Virus record (IMG/VR): IMGVR_UViG_3300037247_001786
Span: 192,001-256,000 of that record
Length of the DNA: 64,000 nucleotides
DNA from: a virus
Lineage: Duplodnaviria; Caudoviricetes
Strand: one strand, 5' to 3'
The position numbers and the translations under genes were made by a program. A model generated the notes under the pieces. It had not been told where the DNA came from, did not search any database, and was given only the letters and a program-made list of their open reading frames with translations. Positions 9,511 through 51,973 of the stretch are shown one piece after another (the first letter of the stretch is position 1; every line of letters begins with the position of its first letter).

Positions 9511-10128
9511 TTGGGAGTAATTATGAATATTTTAGATGTTAAGTATGATAATTTTGTAGATAGTTTATTTGTAAACACAGATGAATATGAGAGTAAAACT
9601 TTTAATAAAGTTAAAGATTTTAAAAAGAAATATATTGAGTCTTTAAAAAATAACTATTGTGTTATTAGAAGTGACGACCCCTTAAAAAAACAAGTTGGTT
9701 TTAAGGTTATCAATAAGGGGGAGGTAAAAAAATATTTAATTTCAATGAGAAAGATTGTAGAACATCTTCATCTTAAAGAAATAGATGAAAAAGAACTTGC
9801 TCTGTCTTTTGTTAAAAATTATTATAAAAGGATTCTCGATATCCCAGATAACGAAGATGAAATCGTAGATGTTAGATATGAGATTAAAGATAAAATGATA
9901 CTGATTCTTTTTGTAATGTCCGAGGGGTCTGTCTCTTCATTTTTGGAAGATGATTGTAATGTACTTCCTTTATATTTCACTACGATTGATGGTTTAGATG
10001 GTTGGAGTTATTCTATATGCTATTTAAGACAGAATGAATTGGAAGTAGCAGATTTTAGTGAGAGTTGGGGCAGTATAAAAGATTTTATTTCGGAAAAAAT
10101 TATAGATGATGATTTAGGAATTAAATAA
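9511..10128 (+). CDS. Hypothetical protein bracketed by 33-bp direct repeats
   Basis: 205 aa; ends DLGIK, like the upstream ORF. Confidence 0.65.
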   Translation: MGVIMNILDVKYDNFVDSLFVNTDEYESKTFNKVKDFKKKYIESLKNNYCVIRSDDPLKKQVGFKVINKGEVKKYLISMRKIVEHLHLKEIDEKELALSFVKNYYKRILDIPDNEDEIVDVRYEIKDKMILILFVMSEGSVSSFLEDDCNVLPLYFTTIDGLDGWSYSICYLRQNELEVADFSESWGSIKDFISEKIIDDDLGIK

Positions 10129-10146
10129 TGCCAGATGTAAAACAGA
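10114..10146 (+). repeat. 33-bp direct repeat, copy 2 (contains the dnaE-C start)
   Basis: ttaggaattaaataatgccagatgtaaaacaga. Confidence 0.9.
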
Positions 10147-29386: not shown

Positions 29387-29710
29387 ATGAGACATAAAGG
29401 TTATAATAGTTTTAGTTACCCTCCAGACCTTGTTGAAGAGAAGGGGTGTGAGGTTTGCGGCTGCATTTGTGATGTTAATCGAGGAGTAGTTGGACCTACG
29501 AGTTTCGCTGGAGCGATGGCCAAATGCAAAACTCCTCATGATAGTTTTACTTGCCCTTACAGTGATGAGGAGTGGCATATCTCGGCACTGAGTATGTCTT
29601 TGGAGAGAGACGAATTTCATAGTCCATCATTAAAAAAACTTATACAGAGCGATATCGACGATATTGTATTTAATAATGTTAATCCTTTTATAGAGGCTGA
29701 GCGTTCTTGA
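29387..29710 (+). CDS. Stand-alone Cys/His module (CxxC...HD.F.CP)
   Basis: CEVCGCICDVNRGVVGPTSFAGAMAKCKTPHDSFTCPYSDEEWH. Confidence 0.65.
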   Translation: MRHKGYNSFSYPPDLVEEKGCEVCGCICDVNRGVVGPTSFAGAMAKCKTPHDSFTCPYSDEEWHISALSMSLERDEFHSPSLKKLIQSDIDDIVFNNVNPFIEAERS

Positions 29711-30444
29711 ATACATATGTTGAGTTAATTAACAAGCATAAGGGAGAGGATTGTTTTATTTTGGCGGCTGGACCAACTCTTTATGATGTTTTTTATAAAG
29801 AGTACAAAGACTATATTGATCTATTTCGAGACAAAGTTGTTATCTCTGTAAATGCTTCGATTATAGCTTGCGTTGAGCATCTTGATTGGATGGGAGACGG
29901 AGATAATAGATATTGGATATCAGATGACTCATTGACTACGAGGTGGTCGTGGTGGAAGTTAGTTGAGCAGAGTAAGTGTACTAAAATAGTAAGAAATAGT
30001 TGGTTGAAACAGAAACATTATGGGGATATCGATGGTTTCCTTCATTTCTCCGCCAGACCGACACCAGAGGACGTAATTAACAAAGATGATGTTGGTCTGT
30101 CATATTGTTCTTCTGCTCCCTCAGCGATAGACCTGGCGATTCAGATGGGTTGTAAGAATATCTATTTACTAGGTCTTGATCATGCGAAGAGAGACGGCAA
30201 AGTGTATTTTTGGGAATATTTCTCAAAAGTTAGGCATCCCAAACAATTCAAACCAGGTAAACCTCCTTGGCATGTTCAGAAGGACATGTACAAAGTCAAT
30301 GCTATGGCATATGAGGCACTAGATAAATTCGCGGAAGAAAAAGGTTCTCAAATTTATAATTGTAGCAAAATAGCACATCAGGAGAAGACCACATATTCAT
30401 TCAAATACAAGGATTTTGCCGATATTATAGCAAGTGAGCAATAA
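29707..30444 (+). CDS. DUF115/MptE-like (Maf/Cst-type) putative nonulosonate transferase
   Basis: CFILAAGPTL, VISVN, IYLLGLDH, IYNCS. Confidence 0.65.
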   Translation: MNTYVELINKHKGEDCFILAAGPTLYDVFYKEYKDYIDLFRDKVVISVNASIIACVEHLDWMGDGDNRYWISDDSLTTRWSWWKLVEQSKCTKIVRNSWLKQKHYGDIDGFLHFSARPTPEDVINKDDVGLSYCSSAPSAIDLAIQMGCKNIYLLGLDHAKRDGKVYFWEYFSKVRHPKQFKPGKPPWHVQKDMYKVNAMAYEALDKFAEEKGSQIYNCSKIAHQEKTTYSFKYKDFADIIASEQ

Positions 30445-30456
30445 AGGAGAGTTCTT

Positions 30457-31125
30457 ATGTCGAAAAAATATAAACCTCTAGAAAAGTGGAACGGGATACT
30501 TGAGAAAAAAGAGCCTATTTTTATTTTAGGTAATGGACCTAGCTTAACAGATAATGATTTATCTTTACTTGATACTTATTTAACAATTGGCATAAATAGA
30601 GTTTTTCAAGCTTATGATCCAACTATTCTTTTTTGGCAAGATAGAAGTGTCTGGGCTACAAGCTCAAAAGATATGCAGAAAACCAAGTCTATAAAGGTAA
30701 CTAGGAAGGGAATGGTTGGTCCTAATCTATTTCCTAATTATTTATTTTTTGTTTTAAAAGGCAAACGTAATTCTCCTTATCCTGGACAGTGTGATACCGC
30801 TAAATTAATAGGGCAAGATATAACACATGGAGTTACCACTCAATTTGCAGAAGCTTTATGCCCATCTCATATTGTCTTTTTAGGAATAGATTGTCAGTTT
30901 AGAGATGGTAAAACTGATTTTTATGGTAATAATAAATTTCATAGAAAGGATATGTTAGATAGATGTGCCCAGATTTCTATGAAAATAAAACGGGGATGTC
31001 AGGTTCCTATTTTTAACTGTGGTTTGAGCGATTGCTGGAGAACAAGAAAATTAGAAGAAGTTATTGCAGAAATAAATCCTCCAAAACATGACAGAGAATA
31101 TTATGAAAAACTTTTTGGAAGATAA
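30457..31125 (+). CDS. DUF115/MptE-like (Maf/Cst-type) putative nonulosonate transferase
   Basis: IFILGNGPSL, TIGINR, IVFLGIDC, IFNCG. Confidence 0.7.
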   Translation: MSKKYKPLEKWNGILEKKEPIFILGNGPSLTDNDLSLLDTYLTIGINRVFQAYDPTILFWQDRSVWATSSKDMQKTKSIKVTRKGMVGPNLFPNYLFFVLKGKRNSPYPGQCDTAKLIGQDITHGVTTQFAEALCPSHIVFLGIDCQFRDGKTDFYGNNKFHRKDMLDRCAQISMKIKRGCQVPIFNCGLSDCWRTRKLEEVIAEINPPKHDREYYEKLFGR

Positions 31126-31127
31126 TA

Positions 31128-31955
31128 ATGGGCAGAGTCAGTTCTAGATACAATTATAGAATATCAAAAAGTAAAAAAGATCCTCAGAAGAAATCTAATA
31201 GGAAAGTATTGTCACCAGATCAAATCATAATACGAAATAAGAAGACAAAACCTAAAAAGGTAAAGAAGATTTTAGAAATTAAGACTGTTGTTGATCCCAA
31301 AAGACATAGAAATAATATTATAAAGAAAGCGGTAAATTCTAAAAATCTACAAGGAGGAGCATCTCTTAATGATATAAAAGATTATTGTTATGATAAGAAA
31401 GTGATACTGGTAGGAAACGCCAGTGATATAATTAAAAATCCTTATGGTTCTCAGATAGATTCATACGATATTGTTATCCGCATGAATCATGGGCATCCTA
31501 TTTTAAAGTTTGCTTCTCAAATGGGGTCGAAATACAATATATGGGCACACGGTTTTTTAAGTTATAAAAAACAGATATCTGAATATGGGCGTATAAAAGA
31601 AAAAATTGACTTTCATATAGAGACTAATGAGAAGAAACTATGCAAGAAGATTTTTGATAAAAAAGCTTTTCTAATTCCTAATAAATGGTATAAAAAAGAA
31701 TACGAAACAAGACATGCAGGAAAAGAAATGTCAACAGGTCTTAATGCGGCAAGTTTTTTCGTCAACTGGGTTGGAACGATGAGAGAGATATCTATTGTTG
31801 GTTTCGACTTTTTAAAAACATCTAATCCTACATTACAGTCTGCACCAGCAAGAAAGTTTCATGATACAAATATTGAAAGGGCGACAATGATATCATTATT
31901 GATAGAAAGTGAAAAATATTTGCCATTTAATGAAAAATATAATTTTGCAAAGTGA
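31128..31955 (+). CDS. GT29-like sialyltransferase with a Lys-rich N-terminus
   Basis: VILVGNA...GSQIDSYDIVIRMNH...GSK (sialylmotif-L-like); STG...ISIVGFDF (motif-S-like). Confidence 0.7.
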   Translation: MGRVSSRYNYRISKSKKDPQKKSNRKVLSPDQIIIRNKKTKPKKVKKILEIKTVVDPKRHRNNIIKKAVNSKNLQGGASLNDIKDYCYDKKVILVGNASDIIKNPYGSQIDSYDIVIRMNHGHPILKFASQMGSKYNIWAHGFLSYKKQISEYGRIKEKIDFHIETNEKKLCKKIFDKKAFLIPNKWYKKEYETRHAGKEMSTGLNAASFFVNWVGTMREISIVGFDFLKTSNPTLQSAPARKFHDTNIERATMISLLIESEKYLPFNEKYNFAK

Positions 31956-40802: not shown

Positions 40803-41716
40803 GAGTAATAGTTTTATACGGGTATATGTCTGATGGAGGACATAATAAGAAAAATCAGAAAATGATAGATGGTATTTTGACTTGCGGCTATAGAGAGTTT
40901 GCAAAAAATGCCGGTTGTATTATCTACCCTTGCATCCAATATAGGCTTAAAGAGTCTTGGGAGTATTCAATGCCTAATCCAGACGATATAGTCGATTTCT
41001 GTAATGATCATCCAGATGCTATTGTTTGGTCTGTGAAATATTCTCCAGAAAAGAATGAGATTCTGTCTCGAATAAAAAACTTTAAGATTCATTATCCATG
41101 CAATGCCAAAAACTCTATAAATTCATACTGTGATATCAATCTAGTGGATACAGAGCAGAGGATGACAAATGCTTCTTGTCGTCTATACTTAAAAGGGAAA
41201 GACCCTGACTTTTGGAAGCCAATAGAAGAGAAGAAGTTTGATTACCTTTTGATGGGAACAAGAGATGACAAGAACCAGAGCTATTTCATTAGGCAGCTAA
41301 ATTCTATTAAGCAGAAGAGGAAGATATTATGGATTGGAGGTAAAGGAAAGGTTAAAAAAACTATAAGAACTCATCATGAGGTTAGTTACACATCAGTTGG
41401 AGGTCCGGAATTTGTCAGTAAGAAAATAGGATTAGCAAAAATAGGAATATTGTATTCTGAGATTGCTAGTGAAGGCTTTCCTCAGTCATTTTTAGAGATG
41501 ACGATGTCCGGAGTCCCTGTAGTTTATGGAGGACCGTATAATCCTCTATACTTCTTTAAGGAAAACTCTTCCAGACCTAAAAAGAAGCATTTAATAATAG
41601 AAGCCGAAGATAGGTTAAAAAAATACAATGCTGATGTTAGTAAGGCTTGCCGAGCTTGTGCCGTTGATCATTATAGTATTGAAAAATCTATAGAAAGGAT
41701 GTGTTCATTTCGATGA
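40799..41716 (+). CDS. GT4-like glycosyltransferase
   Basis: KGKDPDFWKP, EGFPQSFLE (EX7E), GVPVV. Confidence 0.65.
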   Translation: MRVIVLYGYMSDGGHNKKNQKMIDGILTCGYREFAKNAGCIIYPCIQYRLKESWEYSMPNPDDIVDFCNDHPDAIVWSVKYSPEKNEILSRIKNFKIHYPCNAKNSINSYCDINLVDTEQRMTNASCRLYLKGKDPDFWKPIEEKKFDYLLMGTRDDKNQSYFIRQLNSIKQKRKILWIGGKGKVKKTIRTHHEVSYTSVGGPEFVSKKIGLAKIGILYSEIASEGFPQSFLEMTMSGVPVVYGGPYNPLYFFKENSSRPKKKHLIIEAEDRLKKYNADVSKACRACAVDHYSIEKSIERMCSFR

Positions 41717-42813
41717 AAAAAAGAATATTAATTGTAGCCACAATTTATAGATGTGGTCAAAAAATGTATCCAGTTATCCCTCTTCTTTGTCAGAAGTATG
41801 AGATTGATGTCCTTATGTTCAATCAGATGAGTGAGGATACTCCTTGGCATGGAGATAACGACCCAAGACTATTATTCTATAAGAAATGTGTAGAAGATGG
41901 GGCTACTGTCATGCAAGGTCCAAGTGCGGATTATATATCAAAGCATTATAAGGATTTATCTATTGTCTCAAAGATAGATTATGCGAAGTATAATATGATT
42001 CTATTGGATGATAATTTTGTCAAGGGAGGTTGGGGAACACCTCTTCTATGTAGAGAAGCTAGAAAACGAGGCATCATTGTTGTCGCGACTCCTCATGGCA
42101 ATCATGAGTTTGATAGATATGGCATTAAGGATAAACTAGGCGACATATTTGATTATTCCTTTGTTTTTGGAAAAAGAGAACAGCGAGAATTAATTGGTAA
42201 GCATAGAAGGAAGTTTCTTTTGCCTGGAGGAATCCCAGCTAACGATGTCCTCAAAAATTATAAGCGGACTAATGAGAACATTCTAATAGTTGTTAGCTAT
42301 GTAGACAAATTCAACTCTCGCAAAAAGAATCAAAACGGTTATTTACCTTTTACTGAAAAAACATTTTTAGATTTAGGTATTCCAGCCTTGCAGAAAAAGT
42401 ATGGACTAAATGTAATCATCAAAGAAAAAAGTAGATTCAAAAAGGGTTTAGATTACTCTCTGAAACATATGGAGAAATATGAGGGAGTTAAAGTTATTAT
42501 GGACCATCCAGATAACAATCAATTGATTGCTGAATCGGCTCTTCTTGTTTCGGCTCCATCGACATTATGTTTCAAGGCGATGCAGATAGGAATACCCACT
42601 GTATTGTTGAAACGGTATGGGATGACTGGCAATTTTAAGGGCTACGACGGTCTTATCGATATAGGCAAGGATGACATTAATGAGTCTATAGAGAGAGTCA
42701 TTAATAACGAGTATCCTGGTTTTATAGAAGATGTCCTTGAAGGCGGTAACGATTTTTCATCGACAGAGATATATGTAAAAACAATTAATGATATTTTGGG
42801 AGGAACTATATAA
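41713..42813 (+). CDS. GT-B-fold sugar-transferase-like protein
   Basis: PHG, VFG, LLVSAPSTLCFKAMQIGIPTV C-terminal pattern. Confidence 0.5.
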   Translation: MKKRILIVATIYRCGQKMYPVIPLLCQKYEIDVLMFNQMSEDTPWHGDNDPRLLFYKKCVEDGATVMQGPSADYISKHYKDLSIVSKIDYAKYNMILLDDNFVKGGWGTPLLCREARKRGIIVVATPHGNHEFDRYGIKDKLGDIFDYSFVFGKREQRELIGKHRRKFLLPGGIPANDVLKNYKRTNENILIVVSYVDKFNSRKKNQNGYLPFTEKTFLDLGIPALQKKYGLNVIIKEKSRFKKGLDYSLKHMEKYEGVKVIMDHPDNNQLIAESALLVSAPSTLCFKAMQIGIPTVLLKRYGMTGNFKGYDGLIDIGKDDINESIERVINNEYPGFIEDVLEGGNDFSSTEIYVKTINDILGGTI

Positions 42814-43769
42814 TGTTTGATTTTATAGTTTATGTTTCAAGCCGCAATAATTATGATATGTTAGAAAACGAAGTGATTAGAAATGTATTTTATCCAAATA
42901 TTATTTTTGTCAATGTAGATGATGGTTCCTGTGAAAAAGAGAAGTCAAAAGGCATGAGAATTTGCAAAGAGAACAACATTCCTTTTATAGAAAATGAAAA
43001 ACGAGGGTTACAGTGGGCTACAAAGTCTGTTGTTAATTACGCTAAGAAAAATCATCCGAATGTAAAATTTTTAATACATTTCCAGCATGATAACTATCCT
43101 ATGTTTATAGATTTTTATACAAAATTTCAGCGTTATATAGATAGTGGCTTTTTGGATGAATTTGGAACTATTGGATTTAATATTCTTGATATAGATGGAA
43201 GGAACACCAAAAAGTCTTACAAGTTAAAAAAGGATAAAGGGAAAGATGTCTTAGGCATGTGCGGCGTTGCTAATTTAGAGGAATCTAAAGCCGTATATTA
43301 TTGCAATAATCACATTTCTATGGATTGGAAAATATGGGGAAACCCTTTTGCGGTGGAATCTGTTATGTGGTGTTGTTTAGCAATTAATATAGAACTTTTT
43401 GAGAAATATATAGACGTTACGGACAAATACCATTTGCATTTATGGGGAGCGGATATATGTTATCAATTCTGCAAAAATAATATATATAACGTTGCTCTTC
43501 CTGATCTTTACGTTACGAATCATATGGCGTTGAAATCTAAATACGATATATCATCTAATTCAGCCAAAGGCTCTAAGGGTGGCGATGAATATCATTTTGG
43601 GCATAACAACCATCATAGTATCTTTAGAGAAAGATTTGGTTTTTGTTGGAAAGATTCTAGGAAGACTTTCGCAAAGGTTAAAAACGAGTACAAAGAAACG
43701 CTGTTGTATAAGTTTTTTAACCATAATATAAAAAATGGACCTCTCAAGACATGGGATATGCAGTTATGA
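42813..43769 (+). CDS. GT2-like glycosyltransferase
   Basis: VNVDDGS, FQHDNY, HLWGADICY. Confidence 0.65.
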   Translation: MFDFIVYVSSRNNYDMLENEVIRNVFYPNIIFVNVDDGSCEKEKSKGMRICKENNIPFIENEKRGLQWATKSVVNYAKKNHPNVKFLIHFQHDNYPMFIDFYTKFQRYIDSGFLDEFGTIGFNILDIDGRNTKKSYKLKKDKGKDVLGMCGVANLEESKAVYYCNNHISMDWKIWGNPFAVESVMWCCLAINIELFEKYIDVTDKYHLHLWGADICYQFCKNNIYNVALPDLYVTNHMALKSKYDISSNSAKGSKGGDEYHFGHNNHHSIFRERFGFCWKDSRKTFAKVKNEYKETLLYKFFNHNIKNGPLKTWDMQL

Positions 43770-44761
43770 AAATTGTAATCATCATTGGGACGAGACCCCA
43801 GTACATAAAGATAAAACCTCTTTATGACTATTTAAAAAATAATAATATTGACAGTTATTTAATTGATACAAACCAGCATTATTCAGACAGTGTCTCAAAG
43901 AACATCATAGAGGGTTTAGATTTAGAGATAGACCAGAATCTTCAAATCAAATCAGGTGACGAGATGTCTTTTTTATCAGATGCCCTCACATCTATTTCTG
44001 AGGCATTGCAATCTGTATGCGATGAAGGAGACGTAGTTGTAGTTATCGGCGATACAAATAGCACTCTCGTCTCTTCTATCGTAGCTAAAAAACTAGGGCT
44101 AAGATTAGCTCATATCGAAGCTGGTATTAGATGTAACGATAGATCTCGCCCAGAAGAACTAAACAGGATAGTTGTCGATAGCTTATCGGATGTCCATTTT
44201 ATTTCTAGAAAAAGAGATTCTTCAAATGTTTCAAATCCTATTTATGTCGGAGATTTAGAGTACAGTTTTTTATACAGTATAGAGCATAAATATAACGACA
44301 TTACATATGATGGAGATATATTACTAACTATCCACAGGCAAGAGAATATGAATGTATCAGTTTTATATAATATTTTCGAATACTGCCATTCATTAGAACA
44401 GCCGATACTCTTTCCAATGCATCATAGATCCAATAATTTTATCAAAGCCAACGGTATTAATATCCCGAATAATATCAAGATTATTGAGCCTTTGGAATAT
44501 TTCGATATGATACAAGTTATGAGAAATTGCAAAGGAATCATCACGGATAGCGGTGGAGTTTCTAAGACTTCTCCTTTTTTTGGAAAGAAATGTATCATAC
44601 CTCTTAAAAAAATAGAATGGTCCGAAATAATTGATGCTGGCTACGCTACAAACGAATTAAAAACAGGCTGGTTTGACGATTGTAAGATAGACAGAGATAT
44701 GAATTTTTATTACGCAGAAGATAGTTGTAAGACTATCTTGAAGGGATTATATGGAAAGTAA
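43766..44761 (+). CDS. Non-hydrolysing UDP-GlcNAc(3NAcA) 2-epimerase, WbpI/WecB-like
   Basis: IGTRPQYIK, TNQHY, GDTNSTL, AHIEAG, TIHRQEN, TDSGG. Confidence 0.88.
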   Translation: MKIVIIIGTRPQYIKIKPLYDYLKNNNIDSYLIDTNQHYSDSVSKNIIEGLDLEIDQNLQIKSGDEMSFLSDALTSISEALQSVCDEGDVVVVIGDTNSTLVSSIVAKKLGLRLAHIEAGIRCNDRSRPEELNRIVVDSLSDVHFISRKRDSSNVSNPIYVGDLEYSFLYSIEHKYNDITYDGDILLTIHRQENMNVSVLYNIFEYCHSLEQPILFPMHHRSNNFIKANGINIPNNIKIIEPLEYFDMIQVMRNCKGIITDSGGVSKTSPFFGKKCIIPLKKIEWSEIIDAGYATNELKTGWFDDCKIDRDMNFYYAEDSCKTILKGLYGK

Positions 44762-45308
44762 GTTTTTCGTACATGAATCATCATATATTGATGGAGAACC
44801 TAATATTGGAAAGGGTACGTTGATATGGCATTTTTCGCATGTACAAGAAGGAGCTATAATAGGAAAGAATTGTACTATCGGTCAAAATGTGAATATCGCT
44901 TCTGGTGCCATCATCGGGGATAACGTAAAGATACAGAACAACGTTAGCGTTTATGACGGAGTTATTATTGAGGATGATGTATTTATCGGACCTTCAGTTG
45001 TCTTTACTAATGTTATTAATCCTAGAGCTTTTGTTCAGAGGAAAGACGAGTTTAAGAAAACGATTGTTAGAAAAGGGTCTTCGATAGGAGCTAATGCTAC
45101 GATTGTATGCGGTTTAAATATTGGGGAATATGCCCTAGTGGGGGCCGGTTCGGTAGTAACTAAAAACGTCATGAGTAATGAGGTTGTTGTAGGGGTTCCC
45201 GCCTTAGTTATAGGTAGGATATGTGCTTGTGGTAATCTTATTAAGAAGAATAGAGAGAATACTATGGTGGTATTTGAATGTAGTCGCTGTAATGAAAAGA
45301 TTCATTAA
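44751..45308 (+). CDS. wbpD: Hexapeptide-repeat N-acetyltransferase, WbpD/WlbB-like
   Basis: IWHFSH, IGQNV, KIQNNVSVY, FIGPSVVFTNVINPR, IGANATIVCG. Confidence 0.85.
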   Translation: MESKFFVHESSYIDGEPNIGKGTLIWHFSHVQEGAIIGKNCTIGQNVNIASGAIIGDNVKIQNNVSVYDGVIIEDDVFIGPSVVFTNVINPRAFVQRKDEFKKTIVRKGSSIGANATIVCGLNIGEYALVGAGSVVTKNVMSNEVVVGVPALVIGRICACGNLIKKNRENTMVVFECSRCNEKIH

Positions 45309-45328
45309 GATGTTCATAAGGAGAATTA

Positions 45329-46264
45329 ATGAAGAAGTTTGCTTTGATAGGAGCTGCTGGATATATAGCTCCGAGGCATATGGATGCCATAAAAAAGACT
45401 GATAATATATTAGTCGCTGCTATAGATAAGAACGATTCCGTTGGAATCATAGACTCTTATTTTCCAACCTCAAGTTTTTTTACCGAGTTCGAGAGATTCG
45501 ATAGGTATATCGAGAAGATGAATCTTACAGACCCCGTGGATTACGTTTCTATCTGTTCTCCTAACTATCTACATGACGCACATGTCAGATTTGGTTTGAG
45601 GGTAGGAGCGAATGTTATTTGTGAGAAGCCTTTAGTTATTAATCCTCGCAATTTAGATTCTTTGGAAAAGATAGAGGAGATGTCTGATGGTAACGTTAAT
45701 TGTATATTGCAACTAAGGCTAAGCGAGGCATTTAAACAGATAAAAGAAAAAGTAGATAATGCTGATGATATTCTAGATATTGATGTTACTTATATTACTT
45801 CAAGAGGACAATGGTACACTTATTCTTGGAAGGGGGATGACCAGAAGTCAGGTGGAGTCATTTACAATATTGGGATACATCTCATTGATATGCTATGTTA
45901 CGCATTAGGGGAACCAATCCAAAATATCGTTCATCTTAACGAGAGTCGTAAGTCTGCTGGGTATATGGAATTTAAAAAAGCTAGAGTTAGATGGTTTTTA
46001 TCAATTCAAAATAGCGATATTCCAGAAGATATTAAAGACAGTACTACATATCGTTCGATTACTATAAATGGAGAAGCTATAGATATGTCTTTCGGTTTCC
46101 AGGATTTGCATGTCAAGGCTTATAAAAAGATATTGGATGGAGAAGGATTTAGTATGTCAGATGCTAGAACGGCTTTACAAGTTGCTTATGATATTAAAAA
46201 TTCAACTCAAGTTGGAATTAAGGGCGATTATCATCCATTACTATTAGACTTAAAATTTAGATAA
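45329..46264 (+). CDS. wbpB: UDP-GlcNAcA 3-dehydrogenase, WbpB/WlbA-like (Gfo/Idh/MocA)
   Basis: FALIGAAGYIAPRH, FTEFERFD, SICSPNYLH, CEKP, NIGIH. Confidence 0.88.
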   Translation: MKKFALIGAAGYIAPRHMDAIKKTDNILVAAIDKNDSVGIIDSYFPTSSFFTEFERFDRYIEKMNLTDPVDYVSICSPNYLHDAHVRFGLRVGANVICEKPLVINPRNLDSLEKIEEMSDGNVNCILQLRLSEAFKQIKEKVDNADDILDIDVTYITSRGQWYTYSWKGDDQKSGGVIYNIGIHLIDMLCYALGEPIQNIVHLNESRKSAGYMEFKKARVRWFLSIQNSDIPEDIKDSTTYRSITINGEAIDMSFGFQDLHVKAYKKILDGEGFSMSDARTALQVAYDIKNSTQVGIKGDYHPLLLDLKFR

Positions 46265-46274
46265 GGGACATTTT

Positions 46275-47243
46275 ATGAATATTCTACTCACAGGCGTCGC
46301 AGGCTCGATAGGTTCATTTCTTTTGGATTCTCTTTTAGAGAGAGGGCATACCGTAGTTGGCATTGATAATTTAATATATGGGCGTATGGATAATATCAGC
46401 CACAATCTATCCAATGATAATTTTACCTTTATAGACGGAGATATAACAGAATATGATTTTTTTTCAATGGAACAAAAGTTTGATTGCATTTGCCATCTAG
46501 CGGCTTTAAAGAAAATAGGCAATATGTCAAATTGGAAGAGAACAGATTTAATCAGAAACAATTTTGCTATTCAGCGGTTGTTAAGATTAGCTGTAGAACA
46601 AGATTGTAAGTTTGTCTTCTCATCTACTTCTGATGTCTATGGAACATCAGAAGATTTACCTTTTAGAGAAGATGGAGATTTGAAAATTGGACCGTCTGAT
46701 GTAGAGAGGTGGGATTACGCCGCTTCAAAACTTTTCGATGAACACGTATGTTTTTCTTATGCCGATGATTACGATATCGATTTAGTTGTCATTCGATATT
46801 TTGGTGCTTATAGCGATAGATCTAAATGGCAGTACGGAGAGCATATACCGTTGTTTATCAAGAGGGCAATGGAAGGAGAAGAGATAACTGTTCATGGAGA
46901 TGGATTACATACCAGGAGCATGTGCCATATAGATGATGCGATAATAGGGACGATACAGTCTATTGAATTAGAATCCGCTAATGGACATATTATTAATATC
47001 GGTTCAAATGAAGAAATGACCATATTAGAACATGCTAAAACTATATGGAGAATTGTTAACGGAAATGAAGAGCCTAATATAAAATTTATTCCAATGAAAG
47101 AAGTTTTTGGTAAATATAGAGAGATACAAAGAAGAGTTCCTGACTTAACAAAAGCTAAAAAACTTTTGGATTATGAACCTAAAATTTTATTTGAAGATGG
47201 CATAGCAGATGTCGTTGCAAAGATTAGGAGAAAAAATGATTAA
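46275..47243 (+). CDS. NAD-dependent epimerase/dehydratase (extended SDR)
   Basis: TGVAGSIG, HLAA, SSTSDVYG, YAASK, RYFGAYS. Confidence 0.88.
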   Translation: MNILLTGVAGSIGSFLLDSLLERGHTVVGIDNLIYGRMDNISHNLSNDNFTFIDGDITEYDFFSMEQKFDCICHLAALKKIGNMSNWKRTDLIRNNFAIQRLLRLAVEQDCKFVFSSTSDVYGTSEDLPFREDGDLKIGPSDVERWDYAASKLFDEHVCFSYADDYDIDLVVIRYFGAYSDRSKWQYGEHIPLFIKRAMEGEEITVHGDGLHTRSMCHIDDAIIGTIQSIELESANGHIINIGSNEEMTILEHAKTIWRIVNGNEEPNIKFIPMKEVFGKYREIQRRVPDLTKAKKLLDYEPKILFEDGIADVVAKIRRKND

Positions 47244-48882
47244 CGGTAAAAAAGTTTTAGCCATTACTTTAGCCAGAGGCGGCTCTACGAAAATAAAAAA
47301 GAAAAATATCGTAGACATTAATGGAAAACCGTTGTTGCAATACACAACTGATGAGGTTAAGAAAAGCAAGTATATAGACAATTATGCTGTTTCGACTGAT
47401 GATAAAGAAATAGCTCATGTCTGTACGGAAATGGACGTTCCTTATTATTGGCGTAATAATGAAAATGCAACAGACATAGCTAAGTCTTCCGATGCGTTGA
47501 TTGAGGTAGTAAATTATTTCGGCGGCAAGTATGATTATATCGTAGAAGTTATGTGTACTAACCCTTTAAAAACCGTTGAAGACATAGACGGATGTATAGA
47601 GAGAATAGAAGAGGCAGGAGGAGATTCAGTAGTTTCTGTTGTTAGAATATACGACCATCATCCAGCAAGATTAAAATATCTTGATGAACATAATGTCATG
47701 CAGGACTTTGTACCTGAAATTTTAGAGAGCAGAAGGCAAGACTTAACGCCTCCAGCGTATATCAGAAATGGCTCTATCTATGTAATGACTAAAAATTTTC
47801 TACTGACAGAAAAAAGTAGATACAATAAATCAAGTCAGGCTTACATAATGTCAGAGGATAACACTATTAATATTGACGAGAAGAGAGACTTGCTAATTGC
47901 CAAGTATATACTTCAAGAGAGGAACGGATTGAAAGTTCTATGCATTACACCTGTGTCCCACATCGAGGGACTAGTAGACATGCTTGAGCAATGCGGAGAT
48001 GTGACCTATAAGGTTGATATCGACAGGCAGGGGGCAAGAGATAGCCTATTAAGGGACAAGTATAATGTTATCTATACGAATCCTAACAAGATGACGTTTA
48101 GGATAGATGAAGAGTTATTAAAAGGGACTTCTGTAGAAATAGTTTGCACGGCATCTACTGGGACTAATCATATAGATATGAATTATTGTGAGAAAAATAA
48201 TATTGAAGTTATTTCACTTACAGTCGATTATGAAATAATCGAAAAAATAACGTCTACCGCTGAGATGGCTTTTACACTAATGTTATCTCTTATCAGGAAC
48301 CTTCCAAAAGCGGTGGATGGAGTTAAGAAATATGATTGGAATTATGAGAACTATATAGGGCGACAGCTAAATTGTTTAGATGTAGGAATTATTGGATACG
48401 GAAGGCTCGGCAAACATTATGCTAGATTCTGTGAGCCATTTTTTAGAAATATATTTATCACTGACCCTTATAAAAAAGTAGACGATAAGTATTATCAGAC
48501 TGATTTCGACCATTTACTAAAAGAATCAGATGTGGTTGTCTTGCATGTTCATTTGAATGATGATACTTATCATATGATTAACGAAACGACTATAAGTAAA
48601 ATGAAAAATGGTGCTTATTTGGTTAATACGTCAAGAGGAGACATTGTTGATGAAGAGGCTGTTATTGATGCTATTAAATCTGGCAAGCTAAAAGGGTACG
48701 CAACCGATGTAATTTCCGATGAACTATGTGAAGGCTTGGAAAACAGTAGTTTAATAAAGGCTATGAAAGAAGGGCATAATATTATAATTAGCCCTCATAT
48801 TGCTGGCATGACGAAAGAAGCACAAGAATTAGCTTATCGTAGGGTTGCCACAAGGTTATTGGAGAAAATAAATGAAAAATAA
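47236..48882 (+). CDS. neuA: CMP-nonulosonate synthetase (NeuA) fused to a D-2-hydroxyacid dehydrogenase
   Basis: ARGGS.KIKKKN, VSTDD, RNGSIY, INIDE; then ASTGTNHID, IGYGRLG, LVNTSRG, ATDV, SPHIAG. Confidence 0.88.
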   Translation: MINGKKVLAITLARGGSTKIKKKNIVDINGKPLLQYTTDEVKKSKYIDNYAVSTDDKEIAHVCTEMDVPYYWRNNENATDIAKSSDALIEVVNYFGGKYDYIVEVMCTNPLKTVEDIDGCIERIEEAGGDSVVSVVRIYDHHPARLKYLDEHNVMQDFVPEILESRRQDLTPPAYIRNGSIYVMTKNFLLTEKSRYNKSSQAYIMSEDNTINIDEKRDLLIAKYILQERNGLKVLCITPVSHIEGLVDMLEQCGDVTYKVDIDRQGARDSLLRDKYNVIYTNPNKMTFRIDEELLKGTSVEIVCTASTGTNHIDMNYCEKNNIEVISLTVDYEIIEKITSTAEMAFTLMLSLIRNLPKAVDGVKKYDWNYENYIGRQLNCLDVGIIGYGRLGKHYARFCEPFFRNIFITDPYKKVDDKYYQTDFDHLLKESDVVVLHVHLNDDTYHMINETTISKMKNGAYLVNTSRGDIVDEEAVIDAIKSGKLKGYATDVISDELCEGLENSSLIKAMKEGHNIIISPHIAGMTKEAQELAYRRVATRLLEKINEK

Positions 48883-49636
48883 TATTTTATTTTGTTCGGC
48901 GACTGCCAATGACAGATTTGAAGAAGCTTTATGCATGTTTACTACGATAAAAGATATTTATCCTGAAGCGAAGTGTCATTTTGATGCCATCTTTTTTACA
49001 GACGAACAGGTTAAATACTTTGAAGATTTAGGGGTTATCGTTAAAAGGTTTGATACTAAAGAAGATTTGCCTCTGTTATTCAGTGGAACTAAGGATGCTC
49101 GAAGGTCCATAAGTCAGAAAGAAATGGAGACTATAGGTTATAGGGCTAATACGGAATGGAATTTGATGTATGCCTCTTGGAGGTTATATATGTTGCCTAG
49201 AATTATGAAGGAATATGACGCTCCAATTATGTGGTTAGATACAGACTGTATGGTCAGAAAAAATATAGATGAATTTTTAAATAAATCTTTGAATTATGAT
49301 TTTTCTGTCAATTTAAGAAATAAATTAGAAGAGAGAAGGCAATTATTGTCAGCAGTCTTTGTCGTGAATAATACCCCTAAAGGGAAAAAATGTCTTGAGT
49401 TAATGCCTCAAATATATCTAGAGCTTTTTGAAAAAGCTATATGGTGGGCCGACCCCTGGAGTATTAATGCATCAAGAATAAGAAGCAAATGTGAAACTTG
49501 GAATTTTAGTTATGGAAAATATGCTGATAATTTTCTTAGGGGGAAATCCTCTATTTGGCACGCGAAGGCGGCGGGAGTGACAAAAAAAGTTTGGATTAAT
49601 GAAACAAAAAGATTTTTAAAAAGATATAAATTATAG
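48872..49636 (+). CDS. Nucleotide-diphospho-sugar transferase-like glycosyltransferase
   Basis: RLYMLP, WLDTDCMVR, WHAK. Confidence 0.6.
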   Translation: MKNNILFCSATANDRFEEALCMFTTIKDIYPEAKCHFDAIFFTDEQVKYFEDLGVIVKRFDTKEDLPLLFSGTKDARRSISQKEMETIGYRANTEWNLMYASWRLYMLPRIMKEYDAPIMWLDTDCMVRKNIDEFLNKSLNYDFSVNLRNKLEERRQLLSAVFVVNNTPKGKKCLELMPQIYLELFEKAIWWADPWSINASRIRSKCETWNFSYGKYADNFLRGKSSIWHAKAAGVTKKVWINETKRFLKRYKL

Positions 49637-49647
49637 GAGATTATAGT

Positions 49648-50436
49648 ATGGCAAAATTAATTGCAGAATTAGGATGGAATCACATGGGCGATATTTCAAT
49701 TGGTAAAGAAATGATATCCGCTGCTAAAGAGGCTGGAGCAGATTATGCAAAGTTTCAAACTTGGAAAGTCGAAAGGCTTATTGATGGTCCTTGGGATCAT
49801 GATGGTCGCCGACAAATTTACGAAAAAGCTGAATTAACAAGAGAGAAGCATCAAATTTTTAAAGACTATTGCGATTCAATTGGGATTAAGTTTTTAACTT
49901 CATGTTTTTGTATTAAAGATTTAGATATGGTTAGAGAGTTCTGCGACGAGGTTAAGATACCTAGTCCGGAAGGGTATAGCACAGATCTAATTAGTCAAGC
50001 TATTAAAAAGTTTGACCATGTTTATCTGTCAACAGGAGCTTCTTATGTAGATGAGTATATCCATCGATGGACATATGAGAATCTAACTTTATTGCATTGC
50101 GTTTCTTCTTATCCTTGTAGTATAGAAAATATAAATCTACCTAAATTAAAATTTTTACAAAGCGTCAGCCCTAGAGTGGGATATAGCGGTCATTATCAAG
50201 GGACATATGATGCCATAGCCGCTATTAGTTTAGGAGCTACTGTTATCGAGAAACATTTTACTATTGACCACGATTTGCCAGGTAGGGATAACAAATTCGC
50301 GTTATTGCCTGATCAATTTAAAGAAATTAGCGATTTTAATAAAGTTTTTTCTAGCATGGATATGAATAGGGGTTTGGGTATTCAAGATTGCGAAAATGAT
50401 TATAGAACTTATCAAAAAGGAAGATGGGGGGTATAG
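49648..50436 (+). CDS. neuB: Nonulosonic acid synthase (NeuB family), short form
   Basis: IAELGWNHMG, GADYAKFQ, LSTG, LLHCVSSYP, GYSGH, IEKHFT, DNKFAL. Confidence 0.92.
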   Translation: MAKLIAELGWNHMGDISIGKEMISAAKEAGADYAKFQTWKVERLIDGPWDHDGRRQIYEKAELTREKHQIFKDYCDSIGIKFLTSCFCIKDLDMVREFCDEVKIPSPEGYSTDLISQAIKKFDHVYLSTGASYVDEYIHRWTYENLTLLHCVSSYPCSIENINLPKLKFLQSVSPRVGYSGHYQGTYDAIAAISLGATVIEKHFTIDHDLPGRDNKFALLPDQFKEISDFNKVFSSMDMNRGLGIQDCENDYRTYQKGRWGV

Positions 50437-51323
50437 TGAATAAGATTTATATATCAGCTTTGTCTCGCGGAGGCTCTAATGTTATTGCGGCATTACTTCA
50501 TAACCATGAAGAGTTATATACTGTTGCTAGAAGAGATTGGAGTCAATTCAGGAATAAGGGTTCGATTAATATTCCTAAACTTTCGGAGCATTTGTCTAAA
50601 ACTAAGAAGTCTATATATTATCGAGGAGGCTTTCAGAAAGACTTATCTAAAGTAAAATATTTTGTTTTTGACAAGTACCTTGAAAAGGATTTTGATTTTA
50701 AATGCCCAGAAAAAGACTTAGTTTTGACTGTCGTCAGAAATCCTTTTGCTATCGTAAATTCGATGGATAATTTCGGAAAGAAATATGATTTTAAGGCTTG
50801 GAGACAGAATAAGAAGACCATAAATAAGATTATAGGATTTCGTTTTGTAGAGATGATTAAGAATTGCAGGGGGAGGAATAAAATAACTATACAATTTGAA
50901 GATTTGATTAAGGACTACAATAAGGTTCTTGCTGATGTTCATACTGGTATAGGGGTTCCTTATATCCCCCACACATCGTTCGAAGAAGTCTTTGCGAACA
51001 ATGGTTGTATATATTGCGGTGGGAAGTTTAAAGTAGAGGAGACGGATTGCTCAGATGCTTCAACCGTTCTTGTGGAAAGGAATCTAAAATTTGCACCGAG
51101 ACTTCATTTTTGTTGTGAAAATGATAATGCTTTTACTTTAGGGTATGGAGGGTTTAATCCCTGTCAAGAGATATCTGAGCCTAAAGGTTGGAGAGATAGC
51201 ATGACTGAGAGTAATTACGAATGCGTCTATTCTCATATTTCCGACAAACTAGGAGAGGATATCGCTAAGAAATTTTCGGATAATAATGTTACACTGAATG
51301 ATATATTAAACATAGAGGTCTAA
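50424..51323 (+). CDS. Sulfotransferase-like protein
   Basis: SRGGSNVIAALL (5'-PSB-like), VVRNPF, IQFEDL. Confidence 0.55.
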   Translation: MGGIVNKIYISALSRGGSNVIAALLHNHEELYTVARRDWSQFRNKGSINIPKLSEHLSKTKKSIYYRGGFQKDLSKVKYFVFDKYLEKDFDFKCPEKDLVLTVVRNPFAIVNSMDNFGKKYDFKAWRQNKKTINKIIGFRFVEMIKNCRGRNKITIQFEDLIKDYNKVLADVHTGIGVPYIPHTSFEEVFANNGCIYCGGKFKVEETDCSDASTVLVERNLKFAPRLHFCCENDNAFTLGYGGFNPCQEISEPKGWRDSMTESNYECVYSHISDKLGEDIAKKFSDNNVTLNDILNIEV

Positions 51324-51331
51324 GAACTTTA

Positions 51332-51973
51332 ATGAATATTTCTGTTATAATAAGATGTCGAAACGAAGAGAGGTGGATTGGGCATTCTATACAATCCGTT
51401 TTAGATTTTATAGAAGACCCTGAGATTATTATTATTAATAACAACTCTAATGACGATTCTATGGACATAGTTAGAGGTTTTGAGACATGGAACAATATTA
51501 AGAAAATAAATGTTGAAGATTATTCTCCTGGCAAGTCTATTAATGAAGGGGTTAAGTTAGCGTCGAATGATTATGTTTTAGTGTTCTCTGCTCATTGCTG
51601 TTTCATTGATTGTGATATAGAGATTGCGAAAAAAGAATTAGAAGCTGGCTACGTTTCTGTTTTTGGAAAACAGGTACCTAAGTATTTGGGTAGGCGTATT
51701 AGTTACAGAAATATCTGGAGTCATTTCGTTGACGAGGACGTTGTCAACATGTGGTCAGACTTAGAGGATAGATATTTTATGCATAATGCCATGTGTTTCT
51801 ACAAAAGAGATTTTCTACTTGAGCATCCTTTTGATGAACATTTATATGGAAAAGAAGATAGGTATTGGGTAAATGATATGGTGAAAGCGGGAGAAAAGTT
51901 TTTATATACTTCTAGAATAAAATGTGATCATCATTGGACTACATTAGGGGCTACCTGGAAAGGAATAGGTTGA
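51332..51973 (+). CDS. GT2-family glycosyltransferase
   Basis: SVIIRCRNEE, NNSNDDS, FSAHC, EDRYW. Confidence 0.85.
   Translation: MNISVIIRCRNEERWIGHSIQSVLDFIEDPEIIIINNNSNDDSMDIVRGFETWNNIKKINVEDYSPGKSINEGVKLASNDYVLVFSAHCCFIDCDIEIAKKELEAGYVSVFGKQVPKYLGRRISYRNIWSHFVDEDVVNMWSDLEDRYFMHNAMCFYKRDFLLEHPFDEHLYGKEDRYWVNDMVKAGEKFLYTSRIKCDHHWTTLGATWKGIG

What the first reader, a model, noticed from the sequence alone, without database searches (positions are those of the whole stretch)
47236..50436. NeuA-dehydrogenase fusion and short NeuB with no NeuC: likely a non-standard nonulosonic acid
Seen: CMP-synthetase fused at about 47930 to a complete D-2-hydroxyacid dehydrogenase. NeuB is 262 aa and lacks the C-terminal SAF/antifreeze-like domain. 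The only 2-epimerase is the non-hydrolysing type (GTRP, GDTNST), and there is no Pse/Leg aminotransferase. Inference: an unusual hexose precursor, with the dehydrogenase oxidising or reducing the ulosonate or making a 2-hydroxy-acyl (lactyl or glyceryl) substituent, channelled to CMP activation.
Basis: partly seen in the sequence, partly recalled or inferred. Interest (0 to 1): 0.62.

Follow-up and report, generated by a model that had tools for sequence, protein, structure and literature searches.

The report
Uncharacterised ulosonic-acid cassette in huge phage
A 461-kb marine phage carries a gene set for making and CMP-activating a sialic-acid-like acidic sugar, and it always includes a dedicated dehydrogenase (here fused to the activating enzyme); the same set recurs in SAR11, SAR86, other marine bacteria and at least 46 viral contigs, I found no description of it in print, and its product is unknown.

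Summary
Gene 47236-48882 is a NeuA-type cytidylyltransferase joined end-to-start, with no linker, to a complete D-2-hydroxyacid dehydrogenase. The junction is at about 47929. Gene 49648-50436 is a complete, catalytically intact NeuB TIM barrel with no SAF domain. The complete phage genome has no DegT aminotransferase, no second NeuB and no second CTP_transf_3 gene.

These are traits of a large cassette, not quirks of this phage. The cassette comprises a NeuB-like synthase, the dehydrogenase, the cytidylyltransferase, a small GT2 and usually a UDP-glucuronate-type SDR.
- Of 46 viral loci with this NeuB class, 45 carry the dehydrogenase. None of 34 loci with other NeuB types do.
- The two enzymes fused independently about five to seven times. 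The phage's own fusion is recent.

The dehydrogenase is therefore neither inactive nor an ordinary SerA, and the product is probably not Neu5Ac, Leg or Pse. Most loci of this class lack both a 2-epimerase and an aminotransferase, which points to a non-amino ulosonic acid. The dehydrogenase's exact step is unresolved.

The closest precedent is prophage EpaA, a cytidylyltransferase-reductase fusion for 8-epi-pseudaminic acid.

This scan has already noted the same cassette on other DNA (e1-5325098, e1-5683162). I class it as a new variant of a known kind, of moderate to high interest.

The parts
47236..48882 (+). Fused gene: NeuA-type CMP-ulosonate cytidylyltransferase (nt ~47236-47928) joined without a linker to an NAD-dependent D-2-hydroxyacid dehydrogenase (nt ~47929-48882).
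   Evidence: Pfam and NCBIfam. Best PDB matches of the N-terminal half are NeuA (6ifd 7e-22; 1eyr), against only ~1e-4 for KdsB. In the alignment of 27 fused proteins, R176-Q177-D178-L179 are invariant in the cytidylyltransferase half. In the dehydrogenase half the glycines of the NAD motif, D419, and the catalytic R476, E505 and H530 are invariant. Junction mapped; start codon.
49648..50436 (+). SAF-less NeuB-family PEP-dependent ulosonate synthase (262 aa).
   Evidence: Pfam NeuB only. Below the equivalog cut-offs for NeuB (167.1 vs 399.65) and PseI (139.6 vs 340.25). Residues I recall as the metal, PEP and catalytic residues of N. meningitidis NeuB align and are kept: E7, K35/Q37, K103, S128, S180/H182, E201/H203, D214. 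Model pLDDT 95. Foldseek: 1xuu TM-score by query 0.88; 6ncs 0.88 by query and 0.81 by target.
46275..47243 (+). SDR of the UDP-glucuronate-acting type (decarboxylase or 4-epimerase like). It is a core partner of the cassette.
   Evidence: Best PDB matches are human UXS1 (5.5e-39) and a Bacillus cereus 'epimerase domain' protein that I recall to be the UDP-GlcA 4-epimerase (6.8e-36). ArnA and RmlB score only ~1e-22. A homologue is present in 49 of 59 loci of this NeuB class.
51332..51973 (+). Small GT2 glycosyltransferase (213 aa) that travels with the synthase.
   Evidence: Pfam GT2 7.5e-17. Present in 48 of 59 loci of this class, typically the gene directly after NeuB. Present in 0 of 34 viral loci with other NeuB types.
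48872..49636 (+). GT8/glycogenin-like GT-A glycosyltransferase (254 aa, DxD motif WLDTDC). A rare accessory gene.
   Evidence: Only 3 homologues were found, two of them on contigs that also carry the cassette. D123 and D125 are invariant. The model (pLDDT 67) matches glycogenin, LgtC and the UGGT catalytic domains, E down to 3.5e-7.
50424..51323 (+). Sulfotransferase-family protein (299 aa).
   Evidence: 16 of 22 relatives match Pfam Sulfotransfer_3. The family consensus keeps LPRxGSN and RNP motifs, which from memory are the PAPS-binding motifs. This protein itself scores only E = 0.14.
42813..43769 (+). GT2-fold protein (318 aa) of a mostly virus-annotated family; a frequent cassette neighbour.
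   Evidence: The Atlas structure search gives TM 0.63-0.69 to GT2 families. Present in 32 of 59 loci of this class.
41701..42813 (+). Unknown 370-aa protein; a frequent cassette neighbour.
   Evidence: Present in 31 of 59 loci. The homologue in L001 carries the precomputed Pfam hit Lept_O_ant_chp1. No Pfam hit here.
29707..31955 (+). Three candidate CMP-ulosonate transferases: two MptE-like/DUF115 (Maf-like) proteins and one GT29-like protein.
   Evidence: Pfam MptE-like 5.9e-8 and 1.8e-5 (both below the cut-off); Glyco_transf_29 at 34.4 bits, above its cut-off of 23.

Best explanation
The fused gene and the short NeuB are the core of a self-contained cassette. It builds, modifies and CMP-activates an ulosonic acid (a sialic-acid/Kdo-type 2-keto-3-deoxy sugar acid) that is not Neu5Ac, legionaminic acid or pseudaminic acid.

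Proposed order of steps:
1. A host-supplied nucleotide sugar, most likely UDP-glucuronate, is processed by the neighbouring UXS-like or uronate-epimerase-like SDR. (Inferred.)
2. The product gives a free non-amino aldose. (Inferred; the releasing enzyme is not identified.)
3. The SAF-less NeuB condenses that aldose with PEP. (Enzyme family and intact active site shown; substrate inferred.)
4. The dehydrogenase domain performs one NAD(H)-dependent oxidation or reduction at an alpha-hydroxy or alpha-keto carboxylate of the sugar acid. (Intact active site and obligatory presence shown; position inferred.)
5. The fused NeuA-type domain activates the product with CMP straight away. (Family shown.)
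6. The co-travelling GT2, or the GT29-like and Maf-like proteins 15 kb upstream, transfer the sugar. Sulfo- and methyltransferases in the island decorate the glycan. (Inferred.)

My preferred reading of step 4 is that the aldose is a uronic acid. The product would then be a dicarboxylic 'ulosaric' acid, and its distal alpha-hydroxy acid end would be the dehydrogenase's target.
For: 1. Both halves look active and are conserved. The NeuA-type sugar and CTP motifs, the NAD motif and the Arg/Glu/His triad are invariant in 27 fused proteins.

2. The association is specific. Of 46 viral loci whose NeuB is at least 45% identical to this one, 45 have the dehydrogenase, 39 the cytidylyltransferase and 40 the GT2 within 8 kb. 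Of 34 viral loci with other NeuB types, none has the dehydrogenase or the GT2.

3. In 84 loci (78 from bacterial or archaeal genomes, 6 from metagenome contigs) the two enzymes are fused in 37 and adjacent in 26. NeuB mostly lies 1-4 genes away.

4. The dehydrogenase tree needs about 7 fused/split changes. The phage fusion (window plus L001) nests inside a clade of huge-phage genes that are separate (support 1.0).

5. Three NeuB clades are linked to the dehydrogenase, one of which keeps the SAF domain. The same dehydrogenase, cytidylyltransferase and GT2 also sit with a DAHP-synthase-like aldolase in two SAR11-type loci. The dehydrogenase therefore follows the activating enzyme, not one particular synthase.

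6. Loci of this NeuB class rarely have a 2-epimerase (7/59) or a DegT aminotransferase (8/59), and the phage has no DegT at all.

7. Uronate link. The SDR's best solved relatives are a UDP-GlcA decarboxylase and a protein I recall to be a UDP-GlcA 4-epimerase. UDP-sugar 6-dehydrogenase-family genes occur in 19/58 and 13/20 loci of two cassette classes, against 1/33 control NeuB loci.

8. Precedent. EpaA is a CTP_transf_3 plus aldo-keto-reductase fusion carried by prophages. Together with EpaB it converts pseudaminic acid into its 8-epimer (PMC12053666).
Against: - No product has been measured for any member of the cassette.
- The aldose and the position the dehydrogenase attacks are inferred only.
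- If the SDR is a true decarboxylase (its STSD motif resembles what I recall as the STSE of UXS), the uronate carboxylate is lost. The dehydrogenase then has no obvious alpha-hydroxy acid handle other than C1-C2 of the ulosonate, and reducing that position would prevent CMP activation.
- The phage itself has no UDP-sugar 6-dehydrogenase. Only 2 of 18 loci of the SAF-containing cassette class have one.
- No enzyme that releases the free aldose is identified.
- The first Asp of the DID motif, which I recall as the NeuA metal site, is Asn (NID) throughout the fused family. The activating chemistry could therefore differ from NeuA.
- The Elusimicrobia locus (recovered twice, as L003 and L011) and several other loci show the fusion with no NeuB within 10 kb.
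Confidence: 0.6

Rival explanations
1. The dehydrogenase makes a small D-2-hydroxy acid (D-glycerate or D-lactate, from hydroxypyruvate or pyruvate). This acid is attached to the ulosonic acid as an N- or O-acyl or ether substituent.
For: The domain is a generic 2-hydroxyacid dehydrogenase whose nearest solved relatives are a D-lactate dehydrogenase and archaeal PGDH or glyoxylate-reductase-type enzymes. Glyceroyl-substituted nonulosonic acids exist, for example Pse5Am7Gra in Tannerella (PMC6388019).
Against: I recognised no ligase, ATP-grasp enzyme, CoA-transferase or acyltransferase among the recurrent partners I annotated in the cassette. The minimal four-gene operons in Prochlorococcus- and Pelagibacter-type loci have none next to them either. 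Most loci lack an aminotransferase, so there is usually no amino group to acylate. Repeated fusion to the activating enzyme is hard to explain for a step that supplies a side chain.
Confidence: 0.12
2. The dehydrogenase works on the C1-C2 alpha-keto acid head group of the ulosonate, like a 2-ketoaldonate reductase. It either reduces this group to a 3-deoxy-aldonic acid or oxidises an aldonate to the 2-ulosonate that the cytidylyltransferase needs.
For: This is the orthodox chemistry of the family; GhrB/TkrA-type 2-ketoaldonate reductases are an example (from my own knowledge). The head group is the one feature shared by the products of the different synthases found with this pair: three NeuB clades and a DAHP-synthase-like enzyme. 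One such locus also carries an MR/MLE enolase-superfamily protein, a superfamily that I recall includes sugar-acid dehydratases.
Against: NeuB-type and DAHP-synthase-type enzymes already deliver the 2-keto acid, so an oxidation is not needed. A reduction would remove the anomeric centre that NeuA/KdsB-type enzymes activate.
Confidence: 0.15
3. Ordinary case: NeuB makes Neu5Ac (or Kdn) from a host sugar, and the dehydrogenase domain is a metabolic SerA-like passenger or is inactive.
For: The best NCBIfam hit of the dehydrogenase is the PGDH model. The phage has a WecB-like epimerase that could make UDP-ManNAc.
Against: The PGDH score is 168.8 against a cut-off of 454. The catalytic triad and NAD motif are invariant. 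The 45/46 versus 0/34 association and about 7 fused/split changes rule out a passenger. NeuB is far below the NeuB equivalog cut-off. No hydrolysing epimerase is present.
Confidence: 0.03

Closest known systems
EpaA/EpaB of Acinetobacter baumannii prophages (8-epi-pseudaminic acid; PMC12053666), and the related ElaABC and Aci systems
   Same: A phage-borne gene with an N-terminal CTP_transf_3 cytidylyltransferase fused to a C-terminal NAD(P)-dependent oxidoreductase. The logic is to modify a nonulosonic acid by redox chemistry and then activate the new sugar with a dedicated CMP-transferase.
   Different: The oxidoreductase there is an aldo-keto reductase that works with a separate SDR (EpaB) on a sugar made by the host's psa genes. 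Here it is a D-2-hydroxyacid dehydrogenase with no paired second oxidoreductase, and the cassette brings its own synthase and GT2. There is no detectable sequence relation between the reductase halves.
Bacterial CMP-nonulosonate pathways: NeuC/NeuB/NeuA, PseB-I/PseF, LegB-I/LegF
   Same: A PEP-dependent NeuB-family TIM-barrel synthase with the metal, PEP and catalytic residues kept, and a NeuA-family cytidylyltransferase.
   Different: There is no SAF domain, no hydrolysing 2-epimerase or PseG, and no aminotransferase. All equivalog models score below their cut-offs. A dehydrogenase and a GT2 are obligatory extras.
PDB 6NCS, the 290-aa 'sialic acid synthetase' of Leptospira borgpetersenii
   Same: It is the best solved match of the short-NeuB family profile (1.9e-42). 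It is also SAF-less and aligns almost end to end (TM 0.88 by query, 0.81 by target).
   Different: About 28% identity. As far as I could find, its function and partners are not described. It lacks the family's conserved C-terminal E/R/R/W residues seen.
Kdn and Kdo pathways (non-amino ulosonic acids)
   Same: A likely non-amino backbone, CMP activation, and no aminotransferase.
   Different: From my own knowledge, Kdn-9-P and Kdo-8-P routes use phosphorylated aldoses plus a phosphatase, and KdsA has a different sequence family. None of them has a 2-hydroxyacid dehydrogenase.
D-2-hydroxyacid dehydrogenases (SerA, GhrB/TkrA 2-ketoaldonate reductase, D-LDH)
   Same: The fold, the NAD motif and the Arg-Glu-His triad.
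   Different: No equivalog model is reached. It is genomically tied to a cytidylyltransferase. I found no mention of cytidylyltransferase-fused forms in the 2HADH classification paper (PMC6303947).

Membership tests
NeuB family (Pfam PF03102) ulosonate synthases | NeuB TIM-barrel domain above the Pfam gathering score | tested here: met
   178.7 bits against a cut-off of 22.1. Model pLDDT 95 with 8 strands. TM 0.88 to 1xuu.
NeuB family (Pfam PF03102) ulosonate synthases | Metal-binding histidines and PEP/catalytic residues (N. meningitidis numbering, from memory: E25, K53, K129, S154, S213/H215, E234/H236, D247) | tested here: met
   The aligned residues are E7, K35, K103, S128, S180/H182, E201/H203 and D214. 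Most are invariant in the family alignment.
N-acetylneuraminate synthase NeuB/NnaB (TIGR03569) and PseI (TIGR03586) equivalogs | Score above the curated equivalog cut-off | tested here: not met
   167.1 against 399.65, and 139.6 against 340.25.
N-acetylneuraminate synthase NeuB/NnaB (TIGR03569) and PseI (TIGR03586) equivalogs | C-terminal SAF (antifreeze-like) domain that caps the partner's active site | tested here: not met
   No SAF hit. The protein ends about 30 residues after the barrel, with two helices.
NeuA-type CMP-ulosonate cytidylyltransferases (PF02348) | CTP_transf_3 domain; P-loop ARGGS..K..KN; RRQDL and NGxIY sugar/dimer motifs | tested here: met
   79.8 bits against a cut-off of 22.6. 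R23, G25, S26, K32, N33, R176-Q177-D178-L179, G188 and Y191 are invariant. Nearest PDB matches are NeuA enzymes.
NeuA-type CMP-ulosonate cytidylyltransferases (PF02348) | Asp-x-Asp metal site (D209/D211 in N. meningitidis, from memory) | tested here: inconclusive
   The motif is N221-I222-D223. The Asn is nearly invariant in the fused family.
PseF equivalog (TIGR03584) | Score above the cut-off | tested here: not met
   107.3 against 205.7.
D-isomer-specific 2-hydroxyacid dehydrogenases (PF02826/PF00389) | NAD-binding GxGxxG...D motif and the catalytic Arg, Glu and His | tested here: met
   161 bits against a cut-off of 25.1. G396, G398, G401, D419, R476, E505 and H530 are invariant.
D-3-phosphoglycerate dehydrogenase SerA (TIGR01327) | Score above the equivalog cut-off | tested here: not met
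   168.8 against 454. The protein ends with the dehydrogenase domain.
EpaA-like cytidylyltransferase-reductase fusions | N-terminal CTP_transf_3 fused to a C-terminal aldo-keto reductase, paired with an SDR (EpaB) | tested here: not met
   The architecture is analogous, but the C-terminal domain is a 2HADH, not an AKR (PMC12053666). No EpaB-like short-chain SDR is adjacent.
Marine cytidylyltransferase + 2HADH + NeuB-like + GT2 cassette (defined here) | All four genes within a few kb, with NeuB of the 262-290-aa clade | tested here: met
   All four lie in window 47236-51973. In 59 loci of this class the counts are 57 (dehydrogenase), 56 (cytidylyltransferase) and 48 (GT2). The NeuB sits in that clade.

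The most novel reading that the evidence does not exclude
The cassette makes a structurally new CMP-activated acidic sugar. One candidate is a uronate-derived dicarboxylic 'ulosaric' acid; another is a pentose-derived octulosonic acid that needs a 2-hydroxyacid-dehydrogenase step. This sugar would be a common but unrecognised surface component of the most abundant marine bacteria (SAR11, SAR86, Prochlorococcus-type cells, Magnetococcales). At least 46 marine viral contigs, including this 461-kb phage, carry the cassette and could use it to re-dress the infected cell or to glycosylate their own particles.
Probability: 0.35. Interest if true: 0.8.

Novelty: new variant of a known kind. Interest (0 to 1): 0.6.

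Why it matters
Sialic-acid-like sugars govern phage adsorption, grazing and immune recognition, and the known pathways (Neu, Leg, Pse, Kdn, Kdo) are used to predict them from genomes. This cassette does not fit any of them. It is nevertheless carried by dominant ocean bacteria and by many of their viruses, so current annotation ('sialic acid synthase', 'phosphoglycerate dehydrogenase') is probably misleading for a large number of marine genomes.

The repeated fusion of the dehydrogenase to the activating enzyme gives a compact two- to four-gene target for heterologous expression and mass spectrometry. The question of which acidic sugars coat SAR11-type cells thereby becomes directly testable.

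For phage biology, the finding adds a ~20-kb, conserved glycan-building island to a clade of 300-550-kb phages.

Tried and rejected
- Literature. Eight full-text searches combined cytidylyltransferase, 2-hydroxyacid or phosphoglycerate dehydrogenase, NeuB, nonulosonic, SAR11, huge phage and Pse5Am7Gra. None found a description of this fusion or cassette. The only useful precedent was EpaA. Another paper shows that undescribed CMP-ulosonic acids exist in environmental bacteria. I found no mention of cytidylyltransferase-fused forms in the 2HADH classification paper.
- Deposited phage records (INPHARED collection). No record has this NeuB class (best 29% identity) or the fusion.
- Rfam and tRNA scans of the window found nothing.
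- Pfam at relaxed thresholds left several island ORFs unassigned.
- Idea rejected: the WecB-like, acetyltransferase and GFO block (43751-46264) feeds NeuB. Such genes are absent from most loci of this class.
- Idea rejected: SAF loss defines the pathway. One dehydrogenase-linked NeuB clade keeps the SAF domain.
- I could not extract coordinates from the NeuB model to test whether the conserved C-terminal tail (E249, R253, R259, W260) covers the active site.
- No complex prediction was run.

Full report
**Context.** The window is bases 192001-256000 of a single 460,978-bp contig. The record is a virus record with direct terminal repeats and a CheckV completeness of 100%. It has 34% GC and 36 clustered tRNA genes. 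The window also holds DnaE in two pieces, RecA, UvrD and topoisomerase I, and nearly all genes lie on the + strand. Earlier notes of this scan also treat it as a huge marine(-sediment) phage. From about 35.7 to 55.3 kb lies a glycan-building island of glycosyltransferases, methyltransferases, SDRs and the genes of this finding.

**Observation.** It is correct in every point I could test.
- ORF 47209-48882 most likely starts at the ATG at 47236, behind an AGGAG.
- It carries CTP_transf_3 (residues 18-193) and a complete D-2-hydroxyacid dehydrogenase (residues 257-552).
- In a related 487-kb phage contig (L005) the two enzymes are adjacent, overlapping genes. Its cytidylyltransferase aligns with residues 10-242 and its dehydrogenase aligns from its Met1 with residue 241. 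The fusion is therefore a clean end-to-start join at nt ~47929 with no linker.
- A relative at 75% identity on another contig (L001) has the same fused gene, which excludes an assembly error.
- ORF 49648-50436 has the NeuB domain only. Its model (pLDDT 95.0, pTM 0.91) is a full eight-stranded barrel followed by two short helices where NeuB and PseI carry the SAF domain. It superposes on the barrel of N. meningitidis NeuB (TM 0.88 by query) and nearly end to end on 6NCS, a 290-aa SAF-less Leptospira protein.
- The residues that I recall as metal, PEP and catalytic residues of NeuB are all kept.
- The genome has no DegT aminotransferase, no UDP-sugar 6-dehydrogenase, one CTP_transf_3 and one NeuB.
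- The only 2-epimerase in the stretch I scanned is nearer to WecB than to NeuC, and is below both cut-offs.

**The features belong to a large cassette.** Three searches show this.
- A search with the fused protein found dozens of fused proteins of 540-596 aa at 33-44% identity. It also found free-standing dehydrogenases up to 68% identical on very long contigs.
- A search with the short NeuB returned a best-120 list almost entirely of 228-290 aa with the NeuB domain only. Many lie on the same contigs as those dehydrogenases.
- A scan of one genome per prokaryote species gave 78 loci. They come from Pelagibacteraceae, SAR86, a Prochlorococcus single-cell genome, OM43, Magnetococcales, Elusimicrobia, Omnitrophota, Planctomycetes and others.

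In these loci, plus six metagenome loci fetched earlier, the two enzymes are fused in 37 and adjacent in 26. A NeuB homologue mostly lies one to four genes away. Three NeuB clades are tied to the dehydrogenase:
- about 229 aa, with fused CT-DH and a 220-aa GT2;
- 262-290 aa, which is the phage's class, usually with separate cytidylyltransferase and dehydrogenase genes and a GT2 directly after NeuB;
- 335-360 aa with a SAF domain and a 450-aa GT2.

So SAF loss is not the defining trait. The defining trait is the quartet of synthase, dehydrogenase, cytidylyltransferase and GT2.

**Specificity.** IMG/VR holds 344 viral contigs with a NeuB relative, and I examined the best 80. Of 46 loci whose NeuB is at least 45% identical to the phage's, 45 have the dehydrogenase, 39 the cytidylyltransferase and 40 the GT2 within 8 kb. 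Of 34 loci with other NeuB types (30-36% identity), none has the dehydrogenase or this GT2. This removes the reading that the dehydrogenase is an ordinary SerA. So do its score against the PGDH model (168.8 against 454) and the invariance of the NAD motif and the Arg476/Glu505/His530 triad in 27 fused proteins.

**Fusion history.** A tree of 106 dehydrogenase domains needs about seven changes between fused and separate states. The phage pair (window plus L001) sits inside a clade of huge-phage dehydrogenases that are separate genes, with support 1.0. In those relatives the dehydrogenase even lies upstream of the cytidylyltransferase, several genes away. Repeated, independent fusion in the same N-to-C order is strong evidence that the two enzymes act on the same molecule in successive steps.

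**What the sugar is not, and what it may be.** Among 59 loci of the phage's NeuB class, only 7 have a 2-epimerase and 8 a DegT aminotransferase. The WecB-like, acetyltransferase and GFO block of the window is therefore probably for another sugar, and the cassette's product is most likely a non-amino ulosonic acid.

The commonest further partner is an SDR (49/59 loci). The window's copy lies directly upstream of the fusion. Its best solved relatives are human UDP-glucuronate decarboxylase (5.5e-39) and a Bacillus cereus protein that I recall to be a UDP-glucuronate 4-epimerase (6.8e-36). These are well ahead of ArnA and RmlB. Genes of the UDP-sugar 6-dehydrogenase family are enriched near the cassette: 19/58 and 13/20 loci in two classes, against 1/33 in control viral NeuB loci. 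The third class has only 2/18, and the phage has none. This points to UDP-glucuronate as the entry metabolite.

Two readings follow, and both are inference.
- A hexuronic acid is condensed with PEP. This gives a dicarboxylic 'ulosaric' acid whose distal alpha-hydroxy acid end is a natural substrate for a 2-hydroxyacid dehydrogenase.
- Decarboxylation gives a pentose and hence an eight-carbon acid. In that case the dehydrogenase's target is unclear.

In two SAR11-type loci the same CT-DH fusion and GT2 sit with a DAHP-synthase-family aldolase, a second 2-hydroxyacid dehydrogenase and an MR/MLE enolase-superfamily protein instead of NeuB. The dehydrogenase therefore follows the activating enzyme rather than one particular synthase. 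This keeps alive the rival that it acts on the alpha-keto acid head group.

**Other genes in and near the finding.**
- The 254-aa ORF between the fusion and NeuB is a rare GT8/glycogenin-like glycosyltransferase with a DxD motif.
- The 299-aa ORF after NeuB belongs to a sulfotransferase family. The phage has no APS kinase.
- Fifteen kb upstream lie two Maf-like (MptE-like/DUF115) proteins and one GT29-like protein, which are plausible CMP-ulosonate transferases.

**Comparison with what is known.** The nearest precedent is EpaA of Acinetobacter prophages. It is a CTP_transf_3 plus aldo-keto-reductase fusion that, with the SDR EpaB, turns pseudaminic acid into its 8-epimer and activates it (PMC12053666). 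The present protein works on the same plan but is not a member: the reductase fold differs, there is no partner SDR, and the cassette has its own synthase. Against the Neu, Pse and Leg families, the Pfam-level domains are met but every equivalog cut-off is missed. I found no paper describing the cassette (see Tried and rejected). A recent preprint shows that undescribed CMP-ulosonic acids do exist in environmental bacteria.

**Earlier scan notes.** This scan has already flagged the same or a sister cassette on other DNA (e1-5325098, e1-5683162, e1-5683169, e1-5740283/95). I treated these as leads only.

**Verdict.** The finding is real and is not an artefact. It is a phage copy, with a recent lineage-specific fusion, of a widespread ulosonic-acid cassette for which I found no description. 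The chemistry of the dehydrogenase step and the identity of the sugar remain open and are directly testable.

Noticed in passing
L001:15727-20792 (32-kb contig of a phage relative with the fusion at 75% identity): A second fused activating enzyme, HMGL-like aldolase + CTP_transf_3 (589 aa), is followed by a HAD hydrolase and by PAPS-synthesis-type genes (a GTP_EFTU/APS_kinase protein and a PAPS_reduct protein). This suggests a second, pyruvate-aldolase-based ulosonic acid route plus sulfation that this window's phage lacks.
   Followed up: no
L072:3176-8506 and L023 (SAR11-type genomes): A CT-DH fusion is followed by an MR/MLE enolase-superfamily protein, a second 2-hydroxyacid dehydrogenase, a DAHP_synth_1-family aldolase and a GT2. 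This is a NeuB-free version of the cassette.
   Followed up: partly
window 29707-31955: Two MptE-like/DUF115 (Maf-like) ORFs and one GT29-like ORF lie in tandem, 15 kb upstream of the synthase. They are candidate transferases for the CMP-sugar.
   Followed up: partly
L005:13423-14604 (487-kb Tara contig, a phage relative): A 393-aa RuBisCO_large-family protein lies inside the glycan island, next to a cupin and an NTP_transferase, on the opposite strand to the cassette.
   Followed up: no
L119:11537-12400 and 15 other loci; L005:15740-16618: A short (~287 aa) UDP-glucose/GDP-mannose dehydrogenase-family protein recurs beside the cassette (16 of 59 loci). It has the N-terminal and central domains but no C-terminal UDP-binding domain.
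   Followed up: partly
window 6284-7705 and 10128-12089: DNA polymerase III alpha (DnaE) is encoded in two ORFs: PHP plus the start of the NTPase domain, then the rest. They are separated by about 2.4 kb holding three small ORFs.
   Followed up: no
G000:C1 ends (outside the window): Both ends of the 461-kb contig consist of tandem copies of a 57-bp unit (the first 50 bases recur at offset 57). This is what reads as the direct terminal repeat.
   Followed up: no
window 42813-43769: The 318-aa protein belongs to Atlas clusters annotated 95-100% as viruses, with a GT2-like fold (TM 0.63-0.69) but no Pfam hit. It accompanies the cassette in 32 of 59 loci.
   Followed up: partly
window 49648-50436, residues 249-260: The short-NeuB class has an invariant C-terminal tail (E249, R253, R259, W260). 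The tail might replace the active-site Arg that the SAF domain supplies in NeuB. I could not test this.
   Followed up: no
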